Below are positions 17,124 through 41,378 of a stretch of 64,000 bases of DNA, piece after piece (the first letter of the stretch is position 1; every line of letters begins with the position of its first letter). The stretch comes from Flavobacteriales bacterium. Lineage in GTDB: Bacteria; Bacteroidota; Bacteroidia; Flavobacteriales_C; GCA-002722245. The stretch spans positions 64,396-128,395 of the forward strand of contig CANFBW010000002.1 in the NCBI GenBank assembly GCA_947444925.1. Reading direction: 5' to 3'. Both the position numbers and the translations under genes were made by a program. Under the pieces are notes generated by a model, which was not told the DNA's origin, did no database searches, and saw only the letters and a list, made by a program, of their open reading frames with translations.

Positions 17124-17208
17124 GGAGAGGTGTCAGAGTGGCCGAACGTGCAAGCTTGGAAAGTTTGTGTACCGCAAGGTACCGCGGGTTCGAATCCCGC
17201 CTTCTCCG
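17124..17208 (+). tRNA. tRNA-Ser (anticodon GGA), class II with long variable arm
   Basis: Acceptor stem ggagagg/cctctcc, D-arm gtcagagtggccgaa, anticodon stem caagc/gtttg with loop ttGGAaa, long variable arm, T-arm gggttcgaatccc. CCA not encoded. Confidence 0.85.
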
Positions 17209-17236
17209 CAGATAGATTGTGCAAAACAGTCTAAAA

Positions 17237-31821: not shown

Positions 31822-33975
31822 ATGAGAATATTCATACTTTACATAGGGCTTTGCCTATGTTTTACAACGGCGCATTTGTGCGCACAAGCCCCTCTTGCCA
31901 GGTTTGGAAAAATTAAATTGGTGGGTAATCAGCTTAGTTCTGAATGCGGCACAGCTATTCAATTGAGAGGCATTTCTTCATTTGGTCCGCAGTTCAATCC
32001 CAATTGCTACAACAACAATTCGTTGGATGCAATTGCCAACGATTGGCATGCTGATGTTTTTCGTATTGCCATGTATGTAAATGAAGGTGGTTATTTGAGC
32101 GATTCATCGTACTGGAAATCATGGATAGACAATCAAGTGGACGAGTGTGTGAAACGCGGTATTTACTGCATTATTGACTGGCATATTTTAGGGGTTGATG
32201 GTGATCCAAATTTGGTGCTTCCCTATGCCAAATCTTTTTGGAATTATATGTCGAAGAAGCACGCTGGCAAGAAAAATGTGCTTTATGAAATATGCAACGA
32301 ACCCAATGAACGATTTCGCTATGGAAATGCAGCGAATGAAAAGGATGTGAATTGGGCGCGCATCAAGCAGTATGCTGAAATTGTCATTCCCATCATACGT
32401 AAGAATGATCCTGAGACCATGATTATTGTGGGCACACCCTACTGGAGCAATCGCCCATGGCGCGTTGTTGCTAATCCATTGACGGGAGCCAATGCTCACA
32501 ACACGATGTATACTTTTCATTACTATGCTGGAACGGCACAGCACAATTTGAATTTAGATACGGTGAAAACCATTCTCGATAAAATCCCTGTTTTTGCTAC
32601 AGAAGCTGGTTTGAGCGAAGAAAGTGGAACGGGTGTGGTTGATGTTAATGCTGCGCAAAATTTCGCCAATGTCCTGGGCGGCAACAATCCAGCGGGCATT
32701 AAAGTGAGTTGGTGTATTTGGAGTTTTGTTGACAAAAATGAATCGTCGGCTTTGCTTACGCCAAGCAGTTGCACCAACGGCACTTGGAACAGCAGATCTG
32801 CCGCTGGGAATGAAACCTACGACATATTGAATACGCCTGCAAAAGATGGTAGTACTTGTTTTCCTGAGCCAGTGATTTCGGTGCAACCTCAAAGCACCGT
32901 GGTGAAGTCAGGGGCCAGTACTTCAATGGTTGTTGTGGCTTCAGGCGAACAACTTCAGTATTTGTGGCAGAAGAGTGCCGACGGTATCGTTTGGACAGAC
33001 ATTGTTAATTCCAACAATGACAGCCTAACGATCAATGTTGCCACTATTTCTAATGAAGGGTATTATCGCGTGGAAGTTAGTAATTTCGTGGGTTATGTTT
33101 TTAGTCAAAAAGCATTTTTAAATTTTTATGAGAATGGCCCCTATTTCGGCACAGCATTAAATATACCCGGAAAAATTGAAGCAGAGAATTATGATATTGG
33201 TGGCCAAAATGTATCTTACTATGATTCATCGCCGGGCAATACCGGCAATGCTTACCGCAGTGACGATGTTGATATTCAAAGCACCACCGACAGCTTAGGA
33301 GGTTATGGAACGGGTTATTGGGTGAATGGCGAATGGTTGGAGTTTTCGGTGAATGTTTTGACTAGCGCTTCTTATGACTTTTATTTTCGTGTTGGTTCTG
33401 CTTTGGCAGGTACCAAGTTTGAAATAATTCTTGATGGCAACGTACTTATCTCACAAGTAAATGTGCCCAATTTAAACAGTTGGAGTCTATTGCGTACTGT
33501 TGCTGTGAAGGGAATTAATCTAACCAAAGGCAATAAAAAATTGAGAGTGCGCGCATTGAGCGATGGGTTTAATTTGAATTATTTTGAAGTCATTGGCCCC
33601 TTGTTCGATTGTAACTTACAGCTGAATGGAAGCGCCACCATCGACGCTTGTGGCAATTGTGCGGGCGGTAACACTGGCCTGCTTCCGAAAACCGATGCGA
33701 ACAAGTGCTACGATGTGTTGACAGGAATAACCACTGTTGGCGTTGGAGCAGAAAATGTGTTGCTTTACCCCAATCCATTTGAAGAACATTTTTTTTTGCG
33801 AACGAGTGCTTTGGTTGATATTGAAATATTTGACCTTTATGGGAAATCAGTTTTTTGTCAAGCACATGTAGGGTCTACTGTCGTTGCGTTTCCAGCTACA
33901 CTGGCGTCGGGGGTGTATTTTGTGCATTATACTTCTTTGGAAGGAAAAGGCGTACAAAAAATCGAAAAAAGATAG
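31822..33975 (+). CDS. Glycoside hydrolase family 5 endoglucanase with Ig-like/CBM modules and T9SS type-A C-terminal sorting domain
   Basis: Signal peptide. GH5 NEP catalytic motif (VLYEICNEPN), downstream TEAG. C-terminal ...LLYPNPFEEHFFL...GVYFVHY...KIEKR is a Por_Secre_tail-like CTD. Confidence 0.8.
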   Translation: MRIFILYIGLCLCFTTAHLCAQAPLARFGKIKLVGNQLSSECGTAIQLRGISSFGPQFNPNCYNNNSLDAIANDWHADVFRIAMYVNEGGYLSDSSYWKSWIDNQVDECVKRGIYCIIDWHILGVDGDPNLVLPYAKSFWNYMSKKHAGKKNVLYEICNEPNERFRYGNAANEKDVNWARIKQYAEIVIPIIRKNDPETMIIVGTPYWSNRPWRVVANPLTGANAHNTMYTFHYYAGTAQHNLNLDTVKTILDKIPVFATEAGLSEESGTGVVDVNAAQNFANVLGGNNPAGIKVSWCIWSFVDKNESSALLTPSSCTNGTWNSRSAAGNETYDILNTPAKDGSTCFPEPVISVQPQSTVVKSGASTSMVVVASGEQLQYLWQKSADGIVWTDIVNSNNDSLTINVATISNEGYYRVEVSNFVGYVFSQKAFLNFYENGPYFGTALNIPGKIEAENYDIGGQNVSYYDSSPGNTGNAYRSDDVDIQSTTDSLGGYGTGYWVNGEWLEFSVNVLTSASYDFYFRVGSALAGTKFEIILDGNVLISQVNVPNLNSWSLLRTVAVKGINLTKGNKKLRVRALSDGFNLNYFEVIGPLFDCNLQLNGSATIDACGNCAGGNTGLLPKTDANKCYDVLTGITTVGVGAENVLLYPNPFEEHFFLRTSALVDIEIFDLYGKSVFCQAHVGSTVVAFPATLASGVYFVHYTSLEGKGVQKIEKR

Positions 33976-33978
33976 CAA

Positions 33979-34737
33979 TTAAACACGTTTTTTTTTAGTC
34001 CAAAATCTCAGTAAAAAAAAGGTGTTTGACGAAAAATAGTAGCCACTTACTTTTTTTTTGAAAGAGCGCAAACTTGTTTTTGGTGTCACTTCGATTCTTC
34101 GAATTTGAAAGGGATCTTCGCTGAAAAAGGACGCTCCTTTGTTGGTGGATACAGCGAACTTGTAGCCAGCATCTTGAGTCGTTTTTTTGATAAGTTTATT
34201 GCATGCGCCAAAAGGATAGGAAAAGGAAATGACCTGTGTTTCAAGAAGATTTTCTATGTCTTTTCTTGACCCTTCGATTTCGCGTTTTATTTCTGTTGCC
34301 CTGCAAAGTAATAGATTGGGATGTGTTTGGGTGTGCGCACCGAATTCGATGCCGTAATTTCTCATTTCAATAGCCTGTGTTTTGTTGAGAAGTGCTACTG
34401 CAGGCTCCCCTTCAGCGTTGCTCCAAGTGTTGTTTGTGGTTTTGGATACGCAAAAAATAATTGCTTTAAAATCGTATTTTTTTAAGATTGGAAACGCAAT
34501 GTCGAAGTTGTCTACGTATCCATCATCAAAGGTTAATATTACTTTTTTGTTTAGGTTTTGTATAGGGTCTTTTTGCAAATCTTCAAAGGTGATACATTGG
34601 AAATTTTGTTGATGCAGATAAAGCATTTGTTTTTCAAATTCTTTTTCCCAAACGTATATTTTGTGTTTGCCAATGGCGCAATTTTGGTTGACAATGCGGT
34701 GGTAAAGGAGAACGGGCAATTGATAGTTCGTTGGCAT
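33979..34737 (-). CDS. Polysaccharide deacetylase (NodB homology) family protein
   Basis: LTFDDGYVDNF and HTQTHP motifs. Confidence 0.75.
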   Translation of the reverse strand: MPTNYQLPVLLYHRIVNQNCAIGKHKIYVWEKEFEKQMLYLHQQNFQCITFEDLQKDPIQNLNKKVILTFDDGYVDNFDIAFPILKKYDFKAIIFCVSKTTNNTWSNAEGEPAVALLNKTQAIEMRNYGIEFGAHTQTHPNLLLCRATEIKREIEGSRKDIENLLETQVISFSYPFGACNKLIKKTTQDAGYKFAVSTNKGASFFSEDPFQIRRIEVTPKTSLRSFKKKVSGYYFSSNTFFLLRFWTKKKRV

Positions 34738-37714: not shown

Positions 37715-39043
37715 TTACAATTTTATTTTAAGAAAGGCTTCGAAGGGCCTTCTGTGCAAAAATTTGTTGCTGTCCCAAAGCAGCGCGCACGCCATCACTA
37801 AAAATGGCATTGCCGGAATTTTGTAGCGCACAAGGGTGCCTATGATGGGTGTTACTACGCCTGATAGGGTGTACAAGATGAGCGTGAAGGAAGCAAAAAA
37901 AATGAGATAGGTGCTGGTGCGAGCGTCGGGTTTCTTGAACCAAAGTATTGTGATTAAGAAAACAAGGAACAGTAATGTGTTTTCTAAAGCCGACGCCAGC
38001 ACGACTGGTGAAAAAGGCTGCAGACCGTCCCAAATGAAAGGCCGAAGAAACGCATTGAACAAGCCTTCAGGCACCGCTGCAAAGAAGCTGCTGAAATTGT
38101 CGCGCAAATCATGGGTTTGCACCACACTGCCTGAATTCATCACTTGTGCCAATCCATAAAAGCTTTTTTTCTGCCATTGTAGTCCATTTAAAAAGGAATG
38201 AAAAGGACTGACGATGTGGAAGACGACCGCCGCTGCAATGAACATCAAATGAACGATGGCTGCTTTTAAAAATGGTTTTCTGTAGCCTTTTCTTTTGATC
38301 CAAAACAAGGAGATTAGGCCGGGAAGCAGCGCCACGGCCACATAAAATTTCACAAAAAACAAGCCAATAGAAGTGAGGGCGATGAGGGCGAAGTATTTCA
38401 AGGACTTGGGGCCATCTGACCAGCGTTCAAAGCCATAAACAAAGAGGCCCATAAGTAAAAATAAAAACCCTTCTTTCAATATTCCTGAGGACCAAAAAAT
38501 CACCGAAGGCAAAAGAAAGATCGCAGAAAACAAAAATGCTTTTTTGCCTATGAATAATTTTTCAAATGCCGAGAATAGAAACAATTTTCCAATCAAAGAC
38601 ATTAAGCAAAAAAAGAGAATGTGCACATAAAAATACCCGCCTGAAAATATCATCATCACGGCATTGATGCGGATCATTGTGCGGTTGTCGTTGTATAGGT
38701 ATTTGTTGTTGAGCACATACCAGTTGTACATTTTATCGTACACAGGTGTGAGTTGTGGTACTTCGCAGTGATAACCTGTGATCATGCGTAAATAATCGGT
38801 AGGTGATTCCCATAACAGTTGGTAAATGTGCACACTATCGTCAAAGTATTTGAATGTGTCGGCGAGATTTCTTTGCGGGTAGTACAGCGTGTATATCACA
38901 CTTAAAACAACGCCTGCTGCGACGTGCAGGGCGTATACCAACAAAATACTTCTGCGCTGCAAAGCAAATCGTCCAAAAAACGGAAGTTTCCAAATAGCAA
39001 GTGCTATTGCCAACAACCACGCTATGGTGCAAAAGATTTCCAT
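37715..39043 (-). CDS. Polytopic integral membrane protein of unknown function (~12 TM)
   Basis: Hydrophobicity pattern only. Confidence 0.45.
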   Translation of the reverse strand: MEIFCTIAWLLAIALAIWKLPFFGRFALQRRSILLVYALHVAAGVVLSVIYTLYYPQRNLADTFKYFDDSVHIYQLLWESPTDYLRMITGYHCEVPQLTPVYDKMYNWYVLNNKYLYNDNRTMIRINAVMMIFSGGYFYVHILFFCLMSLIGKLFLFSAFEKLFIGKKAFLFSAIFLLPSVIFWSSGILKEGFLFLLMGLFVYGFERWSDGPKSLKYFALIALTSIGLFFVKFYVAVALLPGLISLFWIKRKGYRKPFLKAAIVHLMFIAAAVVFHIVSPFHSFLNGLQWQKKSFYGLAQVMNSGSVVQTHDLRDNFSSFFAAVPEGLFNAFLRPFIWDGLQPFSPVVLASALENTLLFLVFLITILWFKKPDARTSTYLIFFASFTLILYTLSGVVTPIIGTLVRYKIPAMPFLVMACALLWDSNKFLHRRPFEAFLKIKL

Positions 39044-39045
39044 TT

Positions 39046-39677
39046 TTAAAATCCGATTTCTAGATCCAATTTGCTACGAAGTTGTTCGAGTAGCGGGTTT
39101 TTTTCCACCAGTTTTTTGTATTTGTCGGAAGAGGTGTACAGCCCTTTTTCTTCTGCTCCTTTTTCAATGAAGGTGCTGAGGTTGATGTCGAAATTGTTGA
39201 GTTTATTGCGCACGAAGGTGAGTAGTTCCGCTTTGATTTCTGATAGGTCGTGTTCCTGCGCTTTGTTGAAAATTTTAAGTTGTATGGTATTGCTGTCAAT
39301 CAGCGTTGGTGCGTTCTTCGTGAGCGTGGTATAAATATCGAGGTCAGTGTTTTTTACCAATTCAGCATATTCACTCCACGTTGCCAAAAGGTCAGCTTCA
39401 GTGAAAGCTTTGTTGCTGTAGTCGGTGCGCACTTCTACTTTTATTTCAGTGGGCTCTGGTTTTAGAATTTTGCTGATGTTGACCGACTTCATTGCGATTT
39501 TGGTGCGGTTGAGCGTTGGTCTTTTCTCGTCGGTATTTTCTTCAGACTTTGTTGCTGCTACTGCTGCACTGTTGGTGTTTGCGGCAGTACTTTCAGAAAC
39601 AATTGGTTTTTTAGCGAGTGGAGTAGCAGCCTGAATTTTAGGCAGTGGTATTCTCAGTTGGCGAAGCTTTTTTTTTT
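39046..39677 (-). CDS. dnaX: dnaX tau-specific C-terminal extension, open only in the -1 frame from the A10 run
   Basis: The -1 frame from 39668-39677 reads KKKLRQLRIPLPKIQAATPLAKK...MKSVNISKIL... continuously to the stop at 39046. Confidence 0.5.
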
Positions 39678-40778
39678 AAGATCAGATAGGTTTTCTGAAC
39701 ACAGTTTCAATAAGCACAGTTCTATCAGCAAACGCTTGTTTTTACTGGATTTGTATTGAATATCAGCTTCGTTGATAACTTGCAATCCGCAGAGCAAAAA
39801 ATCGTCGGAACACTTTGCGGTTTGTTCGAGATAAAGTGTTTTGTTTTTTTCGGATGTTTCAAGAATGGTCGTTGTAATGGCGTTTTTACACAACAGCAAG
39901 TTTCGGAAATGTTCGCCAAGTCCAAGGATGAAGTTGTGTTCGTCAAAACCTTTGGCCAATACTTCGTTGAGCAGCATTAAACTGTCGGGAATATTTTTGT
40001 CGAGTAAAAAATTGGTCGCTTTAAAATAGTAATCTGAATCGAGCACATTCAAGGTGCTGATGACCGCTTGGTAGGTCAGGTTCTTGTTTGAGAAAGTGAC
40101 CAGTTGATCAAAAATTGATAAAGCATCGCGCAATCCGCCGTCGGCTTTTTGCGCTATGATATGAAGAGCGTCGGCTTCGTAAGCGATGTTTTCTTGTTTT
40201 GCAATTTTTTCGAGGTGCTGCACGATGTCATTTACCGTTATTCTGTTGAATGAAAAAATCTGGCAACGCGAAAGGATGGTGGGCAGTATTTTGTGTTTCT
40301 CTGTGGTGGCCAATATAAATACGGCATGCGCCGGCGGTTCTTCCAATGTTTTCAAAAAGGCGTTGAACGCTGATTGAGAGAGCATGTGCACCTCATCTAT
40401 AATGTAGGCTTTCTTTGTTCCGATTTGCGGTGCAATGCGCACTTGATTGACCAAGTTACGGATATCGTCTACTGAGTTGTTGGATGCAGCATCGAGTTCA
40501 TATACATTGAGCGACTGCCCAGAATCAAAAGATTTGCAGGATTCACATTCATTGCAGGCCTCAATGTCTTTGGTGATGGATTGACAGTTGATGGTTTTTG
40601 CTAAAATTCGAGCGCAGGTGGTTTTTCCTGTTCCTCGCGGACCGCAAAATAAAAATGATTGCGCCACCTGATGGTTGCGAATGGCATTTTTTAACGTGGA
40701 TACAATGGAAGTTTGTCCAACTACCTGATCAAAGGTGGCTGGTCTGTATTTTCGTGCCGATACTACAAAGGATTCCAT
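39654..40778 (-). CDS. dnaX: DNA polymerase III subunit gamma/tau, N-terminal ATPase part; zero-frame product stops 8 codons after an A10 run
   Basis: YRPATFDQVVGQ...CGPRGTGKTTCARILAK...CNECESC zinc module. Frame ends ...DLKKKSFAN*. Confidence 0.8.
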   Translation of the reverse strand: MESFVVSARKYRPATFDQVVGQTSIVSTLKNAIRNHQVAQSFLFCGPRGTGKTTCARILAKTINCQSITKDIEACNECESCKSFDSGQSLNVYELDAASNNSVDDIRNLVNQVRIAPQIGTKKAYIIDEVHMLSQSAFNAFLKTLEEPPAHAVFILATTEKHKILPTILSRCQIFSFNRITVNDIVQHLEKIAKQENIAYEADALHIIAQKADGGLRDALSIFDQLVTFSNKNLTYQAVISTLNVLDSDYYFKATNFLLDKNIPDSLMLLNEVLAKGFDEHNFILGLGEHFRNLLLCKNAITTTILETSEKNKTLYLEQTAKCSDDFLLCGLQVINEADIQYKSSKNKRLLIELCLLKLCSENLSDLKKKSFAN

Positions 40779-41012
40779 GTGGAGGCAAATATAGGAAAGA
40801 GTTTAGAGTTCGCTGTATTGCACGAGGCTTGTTTTTAAACAATTTATAAAAAAGGGATTGCTATATTTGCAGTTCAGTGCAAAGTGCTTGAAAGCAACTA
40901 TTAACGAGTTCTTGTTAATAAACTTTTAAAAAGATTTGGTTGTAACAAATTCTTTTGTATTTTTGCCCTCCGCTTTTTTTTATGGCGGGATGAATATTTT
41001 TAAATAAACTGA

Positions 41013-41378
41013 TTGGTAATGAGTCAATACGAGACAATTTTTGTGATGACGCCGGTTCTTTCAGACGAACAGTTGAAAGAAACAGTGAGCGAGTATGTTA
41101 ATTTATTGAAGCAAAAGGGCGCGGAAATCGTTCACCAGGACAACTGGGGCTTAAGAAAACTAGCGTATCCTATTAAAAAGAAATCAACAGGGTTTTACCA
41201 CCTTATTGAATTCAAGGGACCAGGGTCTGTGATAGCAGAACTTGAATTAGCCTATAAAAGAGATGAACGATTATTGAGATTCCTTTCTGTGAATCTTGAC
41301 GATCATGCAGTCGCTTTCAATGATAAATTCAGAGGAAAGTCAGGAAGTAAGTCTAAAAAAGAAGAAGTAAAAGCATAA
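41013..41378 (+). CDS. rpsF: 30S ribosomal protein S6
   Basis: YETIFVMTP...[11 protein letters not shown]. Confidence 0.9.

What the first reader, a model, noticed from the sequence alone, without database searches (positions are those of the whole stretch)
39668..39677. dnaX interrupted at an A10 homopolymer: zero frame yields a gamma-length product, tau-length product requires a -1 shift (or one extra A)
On the coding (minus) strand, CTT AAAAAAAAAA GCT is followed 8 codons later by a stop. The -1 frame is open from the A-run through 39046 and encodes a Lys/Ala/Thr-rich linker plus a conserved-looking C-terminal region. Established knowledge: E. coli makes gamma by -1 ribosomal frameshifting at A AAA AAG, and Thermus thermophilus uses transcriptional slippage on an A9 run in dnaX. 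Here the polarity is reversed (full-length needs the shift). That suggests either programmed transcriptional slippage generating both products, or a homopolymer sequencing or assembly error, or a genuine frameshift mutation.
Basis: partly seen in the sequence, partly recalled or inferred. Interest (0 to 1): 0.55.

Follow-up and report, generated by a model that had tools for sequence, protein, structure and literature searches.

The report
dnaX split at conserved A10 slippage run
The replication clamp-loader gene dnaX of this uncultured Bacteroidota bacterium is split at a run of ten A's, so the short (gamma) protein is read directly and the long (tau) protein needs one extra A or a -1 shift; the run is real and conserved, and this layout was already described bioinformatically in 2013.

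Summary
On the minus strand, dnaX (40778-39654) carries an A10 run (39677-39668). The zero frame stops four sense codons after the run and gives a 374-aa gamma-length protein. The -1 frame, which is what an A11 transcript would read, is closed by a TAA at the start of the run. It then stays open for 207 codons to 39046, giving a 577-aa tau.

It is neither an assembly error nor a pseudogene. Four independent metagenome assemblies carry the identical A10. Five diverged relatives keep CTT-A10-GCTTCGCC, the same phase and the same polarity, even at saturated synonymous divergence. The -1 ORF is under strong purifying selection (dN/dS about 0.09) and matches the C-terminus of the Bacteroidota-type DnaX model.

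Across 80 other Bacteroidota species, 59 have exactly A10 at this junction. Tau lies in frame 0, -1 or +1, and the other two frames close within 0-14 codons.

Antonov et al. 2013 described exactly this two-ORF dnaX with A10 in Flavobacterium, Cytophaga and Chlorobium, so this is a new member of a known kind. Transcriptional slippage is the likeliest mechanism, but that is inferred, not shown.

Two side observations may be new. Many lineages have a hairpin abutting the run, although it is weak in this window. Three Bacteroidales species have an in-frame UAG at the junction instead of an A-run.

The parts
39654..40778 (-). dnaX ORF1. Zero-frame product of 374 aa (gamma-length; clamp-loader AAA+ domains I-III), ending ...LSDLKKKSFAN*.
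   Evidence: ORF listing. Pfam DNA_pol3_delta2 5.5e-45, DNAX_ATPase_lid 9.9e-17, DNA_pol3_gamma3 3.9e-05 (23.9 bits, just under its 24.4-bit cut-off). TIGR02397 dnaX_nterm 3.3e-128.
39668..39677 (-). A10 slippage run (T10 on the + strand), the proposed site of the frame change. It starts at codon position 1 (phase 0).
   Evidence: Identical in 4 independent assemblies and in 5 diverged relatives. Exactly A10 in 59 of 80 other Bacteroidota species.
39676..39678 (-). TAA in the -1 frame, overlapping CT-TAA. It closes the tau frame immediately 5' of the run, so the two frames overlap only between this TAA and the zero-frame TGA, a stretch that contains the run.
   Evidence: Stop map of the three frames (frame-2 stop at gene index 1100).
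39654..39656 (-). Zero-frame stop TGA, four sense codons after the run. It terminates gamma on A10, A13 and A7 transcripts.
   Evidence: The TGA is conserved in relatives.
39638..39640 (-). +1-frame stop TAA, nine sense codons after the run. It would terminate a 379-aa gamma-like product on A9 or A12 transcripts.
39046..39669 (-). Tau-specific part, read in the -1 frame: 207 codons plus the stop. It comprises a low-complexity linker (about 39418-39669) that begins with the conserved KLR(Q/R)LRIPLPK, and a folded C-terminal domain (about 39049-39417). Automated gene callers report only 39046-39492 as a 148-aa 'DUF8439' ORF.
   Evidence: NCBIfam PRK14971 positions 428-613 of 614, E 1.1e-25. tblastn to in-frame tau C-termini, e.g. 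L002 at 2.9e-22. dN 0.076 against dS 0.83 versus L085. AF2 model with pLDDT 83-91 over residues 90-170. PF28557 precomputed on the called ORF.
39680..39700 (-). Weak hairpin GUUCAGA-aaaccua-UCUGAUC ending 2 nt before the run (-3.7 kcal/mol). It is listed because stronger hairpins occupy this position in many other lineages. It is not established as functional here.
   Evidence: fold. (29th percentile within its own gene). (enrichment across loci).

Best explanation
This is a programmed recoding site in dnaX.

The DNA encodes the short clamp-loader subunit (gamma, 374 aa) in the zero frame. It encodes the tau-specific linker and C-terminal domain in the -1 frame. The two frames overlap only over a short stretch that contains the A10 run.

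The likeliest mechanism is slippage of RNA polymerase on the T10 template. A 10-bp rA:dT tract is as long as the whole RNA-DNA hybrid, so the nascent RNA can realign and yield transcripts with 9, 10, 11 or 12 A's.
- A10 transcripts (also A13 and A7) give gamma.
- A11 transcripts (also A14 and A8) give the 577-aa tau, with one extra Lys and then KLRQLRIPLPK...
- A9 or A12 transcripts give a 379-aa gamma-like protein.

One gene would thus supply both clamp-loader subunits. The polarity is reversed relative to Thermus and to most Bacteroidota.

What is shown here: the anatomy, the reality of the A10 count, its conservation, and purifying selection on the -1 ORF. What is inferred: that the shift happens at transcription rather than at translation, and in what proportion.
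For: Real A10.
- The identical junction appears in four independent assemblies.
- The exact 374-aa ORF is seen on 8 contigs.
- No other homopolymer in the window breaks a gene.

Conserved in the clade.
- Relatives whose tau C-part is 85% down to 49% identical all keep CTT-A10-GCTTCGCCGAYTGAGAAT, with the same phase, the same -1 polarity and the same synteny.
- This holds although dS is 0.83 to saturated.
- All 17 close protein homologues of the C-part are stand-alone ORFs.

The -1 ORF is translated.
- dN/dS is about 0.09 overall and about 0.03 in the domain.
- An invariant motif starts directly after the run, and no start codon is conserved there.
- The C-part matches the C-terminus of the Bacteroidota DnaX model, and the fused protein passes the PRK14971 cut-off (744.9 against 685 bits).

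Phylum-wide signature.
- Among 81 loci including the window, 60 have A10, 5 have A9, 2 have A11 and 1 has A13.
- The run occurs in all three codon phases.
- Counting loci with an A run of at least 9, tau is in frame 0 in 51, frame -1 in 14 and frame +1 in 3.
- In every case the two non-tau frames stop 0-14 codons after the run.
- Broken and unbroken genes share the same run length. Random indel errors would not produce that.

Pointers to transcription rather than -1 ribosomal frameshifting.
- The conserved length is 9-10 or more, although 7 would suffice for a ribosomal heptamer.
- Loci with +1 polarity exist, and a -1 ribosomal shift cannot serve them.
- There is no downstream stem-loop and no upstream SD-like sequence (read directly from the sequence).
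- Hairpins abutting the 5' side of the run are enriched in other lineages, the position of the known nascent-RNA slippage stimulator.

Literature.
- The same architecture with A10 was reported and attributed to transcriptional realignment (PMC3711429).
- Thermus A9 slippage has been demonstrated experimentally (PMC1088944; PMC5009743).
Against: - There is no transcript or protein evidence for this organism or, as far as I could find, for any Bacteroidota dnaX.
- No fused protein from this clade is present in the protein collection.
- A10 also contains an in-phase A_AAA_AAA heptamer. Ribosomal -1 slippage, or ribosome sliding on poly(A), could contribute or even dominate.
- The upstream hairpin that would favour the transcriptional model is weak in this window (-3.7 kcal/mol, unremarkable within its own gene).
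- The efficiency and the gamma:tau ratio are unknown.
Confidence: 0.72

Rival explanations
1. Tau is made mainly by -1 ribosomal frameshifting, or by ribosome sliding, on the poly(A) tract. The in-phase heptamer is A_AAA_AAA, from the zero-frame codons AAA AAA AAA. tRNA-Lys would re-pair perfectly in the -1 frame, and the transcripts would be faithful A10 copies.
For: - An in-phase A_AAA_AAA heptamer is present.
- E. coli dnaX uses the related A_AAA_AAG.
- The 2016 review describes the reversed-polarity dnaX genes in terms of ribosomal frameshifting and names a Chlorobium candidate with E. coli-like stimulators.
- The window needs exactly a -1 shift.
Against: - There is no downstream stem-loop: z = +0.5 for the window and mean z = -0.34 across 68 loci.
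- No SD-like element lies upstream (read directly from the sequence).
- The conserved run length is 9-10 or more, not 7.
- Three species need a +1 change at the same A10 (L046, L053, L063).
- In in-frame species both alternative frames are closed right after the run. That fits a population of transcripts carrying insertions and deletions.
Confidence: 0.2
2. It is a split gene. ORF1 yields a gamma-like clamp-loader subunit. ORF2 is translated independently, from an internal start, as a free C-terminal polypeptide. No fusion is ever made, and the A10 is incidental or codes only for Lys.
For: - Gene callers annotate two ORFs, and public databases hold the second as a stand-alone 'DUF8439' protein.
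- Most of the best 150 hits in the representative library are short proteins.
Against: - The frames overlap only at the run, and the -1 frame is closed by a TAA at the start of the run.
- The first ATG lies 59 codons downstream of the run, yet those 59 codons are conserved. The invariant KLR(Q/R)LRIPLPK begins at the run.
- The starts chosen by gene callers differ between relatives: CTG, TTG or ATG.
- The same domain is fused in frame in 51 other species.
- The A10 is conserved as nucleotides in all three codon phases, although Lys codons elsewhere in dnaX are only 67% AAA.
- Untethered from the clamp loader, this domain would lose the linking role that tau has (established knowledge of tau).
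Confidence: 0.05
3. It is a homopolymer sequencing or assembly error (true length A11), or a recent inactivating frameshift mutation.
For: Homopolymers of 10 are error-prone on some platforms. Two of 80 species show A11 with tau in frame (L006, L021).
Against: - A10 is identical in four independent sample assemblies, one of which differs by a SNP elsewhere in the gene.
- The same A10 and polarity are kept in five relatives at dS 0.8 to saturated.
- All 16 frame-broken A10 loci (the window plus 15 others) have exactly the modal length A10 rather than A9 or A11.
- The -1 ORF has no stop in 207 codons and dN/dS is about 0.09.
- Other homopolymers in the window do not break genes.
Confidence: 0.02

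Closest known systems
Two-ORF dnaX with a poly-A tract, where recoding is required for tau (Antonov, Coakley, Atkins, Baranov, Borodovsky 2013, NAR 41:6514; PMC3711429)
   Same: - The gamma-length ORF is followed by a -1 ORF that encodes the tau C-terminus.
- An A10 sits at the junction. The paper's Figure S3 lists Flavobacterium johnsoniae, F. psychrophilum, Cytophaga hutchinsonii and Chlorobium spp. with A10 followed by G. The window reads A10-GCTTCGCC.
- It is the same phylum group (Bacteroidota/Chlorobiota).
   Different: - This is a different, uncultured lineage: at most about 70% identity in the N-terminal part to any of the 80 fetched species.
- The paper covered 17 genes, all with -1 polarity. 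It inferred the mechanism by aligning the poly-A with the Thermus motif and did not test dnaX experimentally.
- From the text I read, the paper did not report that in-frame orthologues keep the same A10, that +1 polarity exists, or that a hairpin sits 5' of the run.
Thermus thermophilus dnaX transcriptional slippage on A9 (Larsen et al. 2000, PNAS 97:1683, as summarised in PMC1088944 and PMC5009743)
   Same: - A homopolymeric A run lies at the domain III / tau-specific boundary of dnaX.
- Stops sit close by in the alternative frames.
- One gene gives two clamp-loader subunits.
- The likely mechanism is the same.
   Different: - In Thermus, tau is the zero-frame product and gamma comes from slipped transcripts. 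Here gamma is the zero-frame product and tau needs the slipped (+1 A) transcript.
- The run is A10 rather than A9.
- Slippage has been shown experimentally in Thermus and not here.
E. coli dnaX -1 programmed ribosomal frameshift (A_AAA_AAG with an upstream SD-like element and a downstream stem-loop)
   Same: The same gene and the same boundary are involved, a Lys-codon slippery sequence is used, and gamma and tau come from one gene.
   Different: - In E. coli the shift makes gamma, not tau.
- It needs flanking stimulators that are absent here.
- It acts at translation.
Nascent-RNA stem-loop-stimulated RNA polymerase slippage (Roseiflexus IS630, Penno et al. 2015, as described in PMC5009743)
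   Same: In many Bacteroidota dnaX genes a hairpin ends 0-3 nt 5' of the slippage run. That layout matches the Roseiflexus stimulator and intrinsic terminators.
   Different: - In Roseiflexus the motif is heteropolymeric (T5C5) and gives a single-base deletion.
- Here the motif is a homopolymer that should slip without help.
- The hairpin is weak in this window, and its function in dnaX is untested.

Membership tests
DnaX (clamp-loader gamma/tau subunit) | An AAA+ ATPase module with a lid and domain III (DnaX N-terminal 355-aa equivalog) | tested here: met
   TIGR02397 dnaX_nterm: 427.9 bits against a cut-off of 250, covering residues 6-360. Pfam DNA_pol3_delta2 and DNAX_ATPase_lid pass their cut-offs; DNA_pol3_gamma3 scores 23.9 bits, just under its 24.4-bit cut-off.
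DnaX (clamp-loader gamma/tau subunit) | A tau-specific C-terminal region homologous to that of full-length DnaX of the same phylum | tested here: met
   The -1 frame product matches PRK14971 positions 428-613 of 614, E 1.1e-25. The fused 577-aa protein scores 744.9 bits against a cut-off of 685. tblastn hits in-frame tau C-termini.
DnaX (clamp-loader gamma/tau subunit) | The C-terminal domain has the fold of tau domain V (KH-like, the Pol III alpha-binding domain) | tested here: inconclusive
   - The AF2 model has pLDDT 83-91 over residues 90-170.
- The best PDB matches are the KH-like DciA DUF721 and DnaA domain I, but they are weak: E 0.04-0.07, TM 0.65 on the target.
- PMC9912922 states that this KH fold is shared by DnaX domain V.
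Two-ORF dnaX requiring recoding for tau (Antonov 2013 class) | ORF1 is gamma-length, ORF2 encodes the tau C-terminus in the -1 frame, and the frames overlap only at the junction | tested here: met
Two-ORF dnaX requiring recoding for tau (Antonov 2013 class) | A poly-A tract (7-10 A, mostly A10) at the frame junction | tested here: met
   A10 at 39668-39677.
Two-ORF dnaX requiring recoding for tau (Antonov 2013 class) | The frameshift position and direction are conserved among orthologues, so it is neither an error nor a pseudogene | tested here: met
Programmed transcriptional slippage (Thermus dnaX type) | A homopolymeric A/T run of at least 9, as long as the RNA-DNA hybrid | tested here: met
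   A10 is present. Efficient slippage at runs of 9 and a 9-10 bp hybrid are described in PMC5009743.
Programmed transcriptional slippage (Thermus dnaX type) | Heterogeneous A-run lengths in mRNA but not in DNA | not testable with these tools
   No transcript data were available. No fused protein from this clade is in the protein collection.
Programmed transcriptional slippage (Thermus dnaX type) | The full-length product is encoded in the zero frame, and the slipped transcripts give the short product | tested here: not met
   The polarity is reversed in the window. It is met in 51 of the 68 Bacteroidota loci (window included) that carry an A run of at least 9.
E. coli-type dnaX -1 ribosomal frameshift | An in-phase X_XXY_YYZ heptamer | tested here: met
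   A_AAA_AAA lies within the run, from the zero-frame codons AAA AAA AAA.
E. coli-type dnaX -1 ribosomal frameshift | A downstream stem-loop and an upstream SD-like stimulator | tested here: not met
   The fold of 39590-39760 gives z = +0.5. Downstream 60-nt windows in 68 loci give mean z = -0.34. The upstream 20 nt, CAGAAAACCTATCTGATCTT, has no AGGAGG-like element.

The most novel reading that the evidence does not exclude
The A10 would be a phylum-wide, length-tuned RNA-polymerase slippage module in Bacteroidota dnaX, and the genomic frame of tau would be interchangeable among 0, -1 and +1 between lineages. That pattern is expected only if roughly half of all transcripts are slipped. In many lineages the module would also include a nascent-RNA hairpin that abuts the run and acts as a slippage stimulator, a terminator-like hairpin-plus-run layout that has not been described for dnaX. 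A few Bacteroidales would have replaced the module with an in-frame UAG whose readthrough makes tau.
Probability: 0.35. Interest if true: 0.55.

Novelty: new member of a known kind. Interest (0 to 1): 0.3.

Why it matters
Annotation. Gene callers split this dnaX into a 'gamma/tau' ORF and an orphan ORF filed under a domain of unknown function (PF28557, DUF8439). That ORF is the tau-specific C-terminus. It should be joined to ORF1 as a programmed slippage product and should not be flagged as a pseudogene or a hypothetical protein.

Biology. The window adds an uncultured lineage to the class in which the essential long subunit of the replicase depends on a non-templated base. The comparative data gathered here show three things: the same A10 is kept whichever frame tau is in, both other frames are always closed, and the run survives saturated synonymous divergence. 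Together these are strong indirect evidence that slippage at this site is efficient and selected. They make Bacteroidota dnaX a good system for measuring RNA-polymerase slippage rates and for testing whether an adjacent hairpin tunes them.

Tried and rejected
1. RNA structure at the window's site. The fold of 39590-39760 is no better than its shuffles (z = +0.5). Downstream windows across loci show no signal. I therefore rejected an E. coli-like stimulatory stem-loop.

2. Rfam and tRNA scans of the window. They found only a tRNA-Ser at 17124-17209.

3. Promoter and terminator consensus scan of 38900-41100. The counts match the shuffle expectation. The scan uses sigma-70 consensus hexamers, which may not suit Bacteroidota promoters (own knowledge), so it says little about an internal promoter.

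4. Local Pfam scan of the C-part. It gave no significant family. The local copy appears to lack PF28557, which the precomputed tables report.

6. Metagenome scan for the UAG-context motif CATAGATTGCAAGG. These were chance matches, so this was a dead end.

7. Test for UAG reassignment in L066. Two contiguous same-frame ORFs separated by a TAG have no Pfam hits, so there is no evidence either way.

8. Other suspicious ORF overlaps in the window (29905/30285, 47487/48017, 35694/36568). They are distinct genes with over-extended mechanical starts, not further frameshifts.

9. Representative-library search. Short stand-alone hits dominate the best 150. Contig-edge fragments cannot be told apart from true ORF2s, so I did not use these counts as a frequency estimate.

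10. A formal covariation test of the upstream hairpin. I did not attempt it, because the stem changes register between lineages and overlaps coding sequence.
Full report
**1. The observation**

On the minus strand the window reads ...CTG TGT TCA GAA AAC CTA TCT GAT CTT AAA AAA AAA AGC TTC GCC AAC TGA.

- The A10 occupies 39677-39668.
- The zero-frame ORF runs from the ATG at 40778 to the TGA at 39656-39654 and encodes 374 aa.
- The -1 frame carries a TAA formed by the last T of CTT and the first two A's (39678-39676). It is then open for 207 codons to the TAA at 39048-39046.
- Inserting one A gives a continuous 577-aa protein. Deleting one A gives a 379-aa product that stops at 39640-39638.

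So the two long frames overlap only between the TAA at the start of the run and the zero-frame TGA, a stretch that contains the run.

A10 is the longest homopolymer in the 64-kb window. Of the 23 long homopolymer runs (A/T of at least 8, G/C of at least 7), it is the only one at a frame break. The others lie inside intact ORFs or between genes. Other overlapping ORF pairs in the window are distinct genes.

**2. What the two frames encode**

ORF1 is the DnaX clamp-loader core. TIGR02397 dnaX_nterm scores 427.9 bits. Pfam DNA_pol3_delta2 and DNAX_ATPase_lid pass their cut-offs, and DNA_pol3_gamma3 falls just under its cut-off (23.9 against 24.4 bits).

The fused 577-aa protein passes the curated cut-off of the Bacteroidota-type full-length model PRK14971 (744.9 against 685 bits). 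The -1-frame part alone matches positions 428-613 of 614 of that model at E 1.1e-25. By tblastn it also matches the in-frame C-termini of full-length DnaX in Pedobacter, Aquimarina, Kordia and others.

An AlphaFold model of this part has a disordered linker (residues 11-55, pLDDT below 50) and a confident alpha/beta domain (pLDDT 83-91 for residues 90-170). Its best PDB matches are weak hits to the KH-like DciA DUF721 domain and DnaA domain I (E 0.04-0.07, TM 0.65 on the target). One paper states that DnaX domain V shares this fold (PMC9912922). That is consistent with a domain-V-like module but does not prove it. A PDB sequence-profile search found nothing.

Public tables file the second ORF under Pfam PF28557, 'DUF8439'.

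**3. Not an error and not a pseudogene**

The exact 374-aa ORF1 occurs on 8 contigs. Four independent assemblies (one Logan run and three ENA metagenomes) carry an identical CTT-A10-GCT junction. One of them differs from the window by a single substitution elsewhere in the gene.

All 17 close homologues of the C-part in the 5.8-billion-protein collection are stand-alone ORFs of 140-199 aa (44-96% identity). None is fused.

I fetched the DNA for five such relatives, whose C-part identity runs from 85% down to 49%. All have ORF1 of 374 aa, apart from two alternate gene calls (382 aa in L088 and 314 aa in L091, whose junction DNA matches L089 and L090 respectively). All have the same synteny: rplI-rpsR-rpsF lies divergent from dnaX, and a 442-aa membrane protein follows it. 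All share the junction CTT-A10-GCTTCGCCGAYTGAGAAT, with the same phase, the same zero-frame TGA and the same -1 polarity.

Against the nearest relative, the -1 ORF has dN 0.076 and dS 0.83. The ratio is about 0.03 in the folded domain and about 0.33 in the linker. Against the more distant relatives, dS is 1.7 to saturated.

The motif KLR(Q/R)LRIPLPK is conserved across the clade (one Q/R difference) and begins at the run itself. No start codon is conserved there, and gene callers pick CTG, TTG or a distant ATG in different relatives.

A mutable 10-nt homopolymer has kept its exact length across this much divergence. A 207-codon frame under purifying selection is reachable only through the run. 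Together these rule out a sequencing error and a decaying pseudogene. They also make independent translation of ORF2 unlikely.

**4. The wider picture**

A scan of one genome per species returned 80 Bacteroidota dnaX loci. Their N-terminal parts are at most about 70% identical to the window's.

Run length at the end of domain III, for the 80 loci:

| Run | Loci |
|---|---|
| Exactly A10 | 59 |
| A9 | 5 |
| A11 | 2 |
| A13 | 1 |
| No run of 8 or more | 13 |

The run occurs in all three codon phases. Lys codons elsewhere in these genes are only 67% AAA. The conservation is therefore at the nucleotide level, not in a KKK peptide. A/T runs of at least 9 are about 70 times denser in the junction windows than in 529 kb of flanks.

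Tau frame among A10 loci, now counting the window:

| Tau frame | A10 loci |
|---|---|
| 0 | 44 |
| -1 (includes the window) | 13 |
| +1 (L046, L053, L063) | 3 |

The A9 and A11 loci have tau in frame. The A13 locus has -1 polarity, as expected for A10 plus 3.

In every locus the two frames that do not encode tau are closed 0-14 codons after the run. The frame-broken loci have the same modal length as the unbroken ones. Programmed heterogeneity at the run predicts this. Random indel errors do not.

**5. Mechanism**

No tool here can see transcripts, so the step at which the frame changes is inferred. I favour RNA-polymerase slippage (about 0.7) for these reasons.

- The conserved length is 9-10 or more, about the length of the RNA-DNA hybrid, and such runs slip efficiently in bacteria (PMC5009743; PMC1088944). 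A ribosomal heptamer needs only 7.
- The +1-polarity species cannot be served by a -1 ribosomal shift. Transcripts with one A fewer or two more would serve them.
- Closure of both alternative frames in in-frame species matches the Thermus logic, where every length other than 3n yields gamma.
- No downstream stem-loop is present (window z = +0.5; 68 loci mean z = -0.34). No upstream SD-like element is visible in the sequence.

Ribosomal -1 slippage or sliding on the in-phase A_AAA_AAA cannot be excluded and may contribute (about 0.2).

**6. Comparison with what is known**

This architecture has been published. Antonov et al. [quoted passage not shown] They described 17 genes from 12 genera, all with -1 at the DNA level, nine of them with A10. 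These include Flavobacterium johnsoniae, F. psychrophilum, Cytophaga hutchinsonii and several Chlorobium relatives. They attributed the recoding to transcriptional realignment by analogy with the Thermus A9 (PMC3711429).

The 2016 recoding review repeats this. It also notes that, at about 50% efficiency, a single-nucleotide change can swap which product needs the shift (PMC5009743).

I found no paper that tests a Bacteroidota dnaX experimentally.

The window is therefore a new member, from an uncultured lineage, of a known kind. A specialist would not be surprised.

**7. Side observations that may be new**

*(a) A hairpin directly 5' of the run.*

- In 32 of 68 loci, the 30 nt upstream of the run fold into a hairpin of at most -5 kcal/mol that ends 0-3 nt before the first A.
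- The expectation is 12.2 from dinucleotide shuffles of the same windows. It is about 7 from 10,958 control windows in the same genes.
- At -8 kcal/mol or stronger, the figures are 34% observed against 2.8% in controls.
- After clustering the upstream windows at 70% identity, 25 of 53 clusters still contain a hit.
- Stem sequences differ between lineages. Some changes are compensatory even at the cost of amino-acid changes: AUC...GAU in L023, L035 and L080 becomes CUG...CAG in L015.
- The layout is that of the nascent-RNA stem-loop that stimulates slippage in Roseiflexus IS630.
- In this window the hairpin is weak (-3.7 kcal/mol, 29th percentile within its own gene). I do not claim it for this locus.

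*(b) An in-frame UAG instead of a run.*

- Three uncultured Bacteroidales loci without an A-run (L039, L059, L066) end the gamma-length ORF at an in-frame UAG.
- They share the context C-A-UAG-AUUGC(A/U)AGG, followed by a short GC hairpin.
- The same frame then continues for 189-254 codons to the conserved tau C-terminus.
- This suggests stop-codon readthrough as another route to tau.
- A motif scan of metagenomes returned only chance matches.

*(c) L055.* It has tau in the +1 frame with only an A5 nearby.

**8. Verdict**

The site is a genuine, conserved programmed recoding site. It is most probably transcriptional slippage on A10 with reversed polarity, and it was already described as a class in 2013.

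Interest is 0.3. The main practical consequence concerns annotation: the 'DUF8439' ORF should be joined to dnaX.

Noticed in passing
Loci L001-L080, the 30-40 nt immediately 5' of the dnaX A-run (e.g. L080 4040-4060, L053 4071-4094, L068 4080-4103). In the window: 39680-39700 (-).: A hairpin ends 0-3 nt before the A-run in 32 of 68 loci. The expectation is about 12 from shuffles and about 7 from control windows. At -8 kcal/mol or stronger it is 34% against 2.8%. Stem sequences differ between lineages and include compensatory changes that alter amino acids. The layout resembles the nascent-RNA stem-loop that stimulates RNA-polymerase slippage. It is weak in the window itself (-3.7 kcal/mol).
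   Followed up: partly
L039 2788-2790, L059 4102-4104, L066 4099-4101: Three uncultured Bacteroidales dnaX genes have no A-run. They carry an in-frame UAG at the gamma/tau junction, in the conserved context CA-UAG-AUUGC(A/U)AGG followed by a short GC hairpin. The same frame continues for 189-254 codons to the conserved tau C-terminus. Tau may be made by stop-codon readthrough. A metagenome motif scan gave only chance matches.
   Followed up: partly
L055 4150-4152: The gamma-length ORF (383 aa) ends at a TAA, and the tau C-terminus continues in the +1 frame for 248 codons. Only an A5 (GCTAAAAATCC) is nearby. This could be an assembly error or yet another recoding signal.
   Followed up: no
L046 4093-4102, L053 4095-4104, L063 4061-4070: Three species have the same A10 but with tau in the +1 frame, so they need one A fewer or two more. 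From the text read here, the 2013 paper describes only -1 cases.
   Followed up: partly
window 39046-39492 (-): Gene callers report this 148-aa ORF as a separate protein, and public tables assign it to Pfam PF28557 'DUF8439'. It is the C-terminal domain of tau. A profile of the domain finds 2,869 cluster representatives at E of 0.001 or better, and most of the best 150 are short proteins with the domain at their C-terminal end. Many 'DUF8439' proteins may therefore be unjoined ORF2s of dnaX, or fragments.
   Followed up: partly
window 39637-39669 (-): Directly after the run, the tau frame encodes KLR(Q/R)LRIPLPK. The motif is conserved in all clade relatives, even where the rest of the linker has diverged completely. 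The underlying nucleotides GCTTCGCCGAYTGAGAAT are also nearly invariant, as expected for a dual-coding stretch that also holds the end of gamma. The function of the motif is unknown.
   Followed up: no
L066 4537-4770 (tau C-terminal domain): A weak, sub-threshold Pfam hit to PF11490 DNA_pol3_a_NII, the PolC N-terminal domain II (E 6e-4, 20 bits against a cut-off of 26.3). It hints at a distant relationship between the Bacteroidales tau C-domain and that PolC domain.
   Followed up: no
window 33979-34060: Three homopolymers (T9 at 33988, A8 at 34013, T9 at 34051) cluster at the 3' end of the polysaccharide deacetylase ORF 33979-34737 (-), next to the convergent gene that ends at 33975. This is an AT-rich convergent junction. 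No frame break was seen.
   Followed up: no
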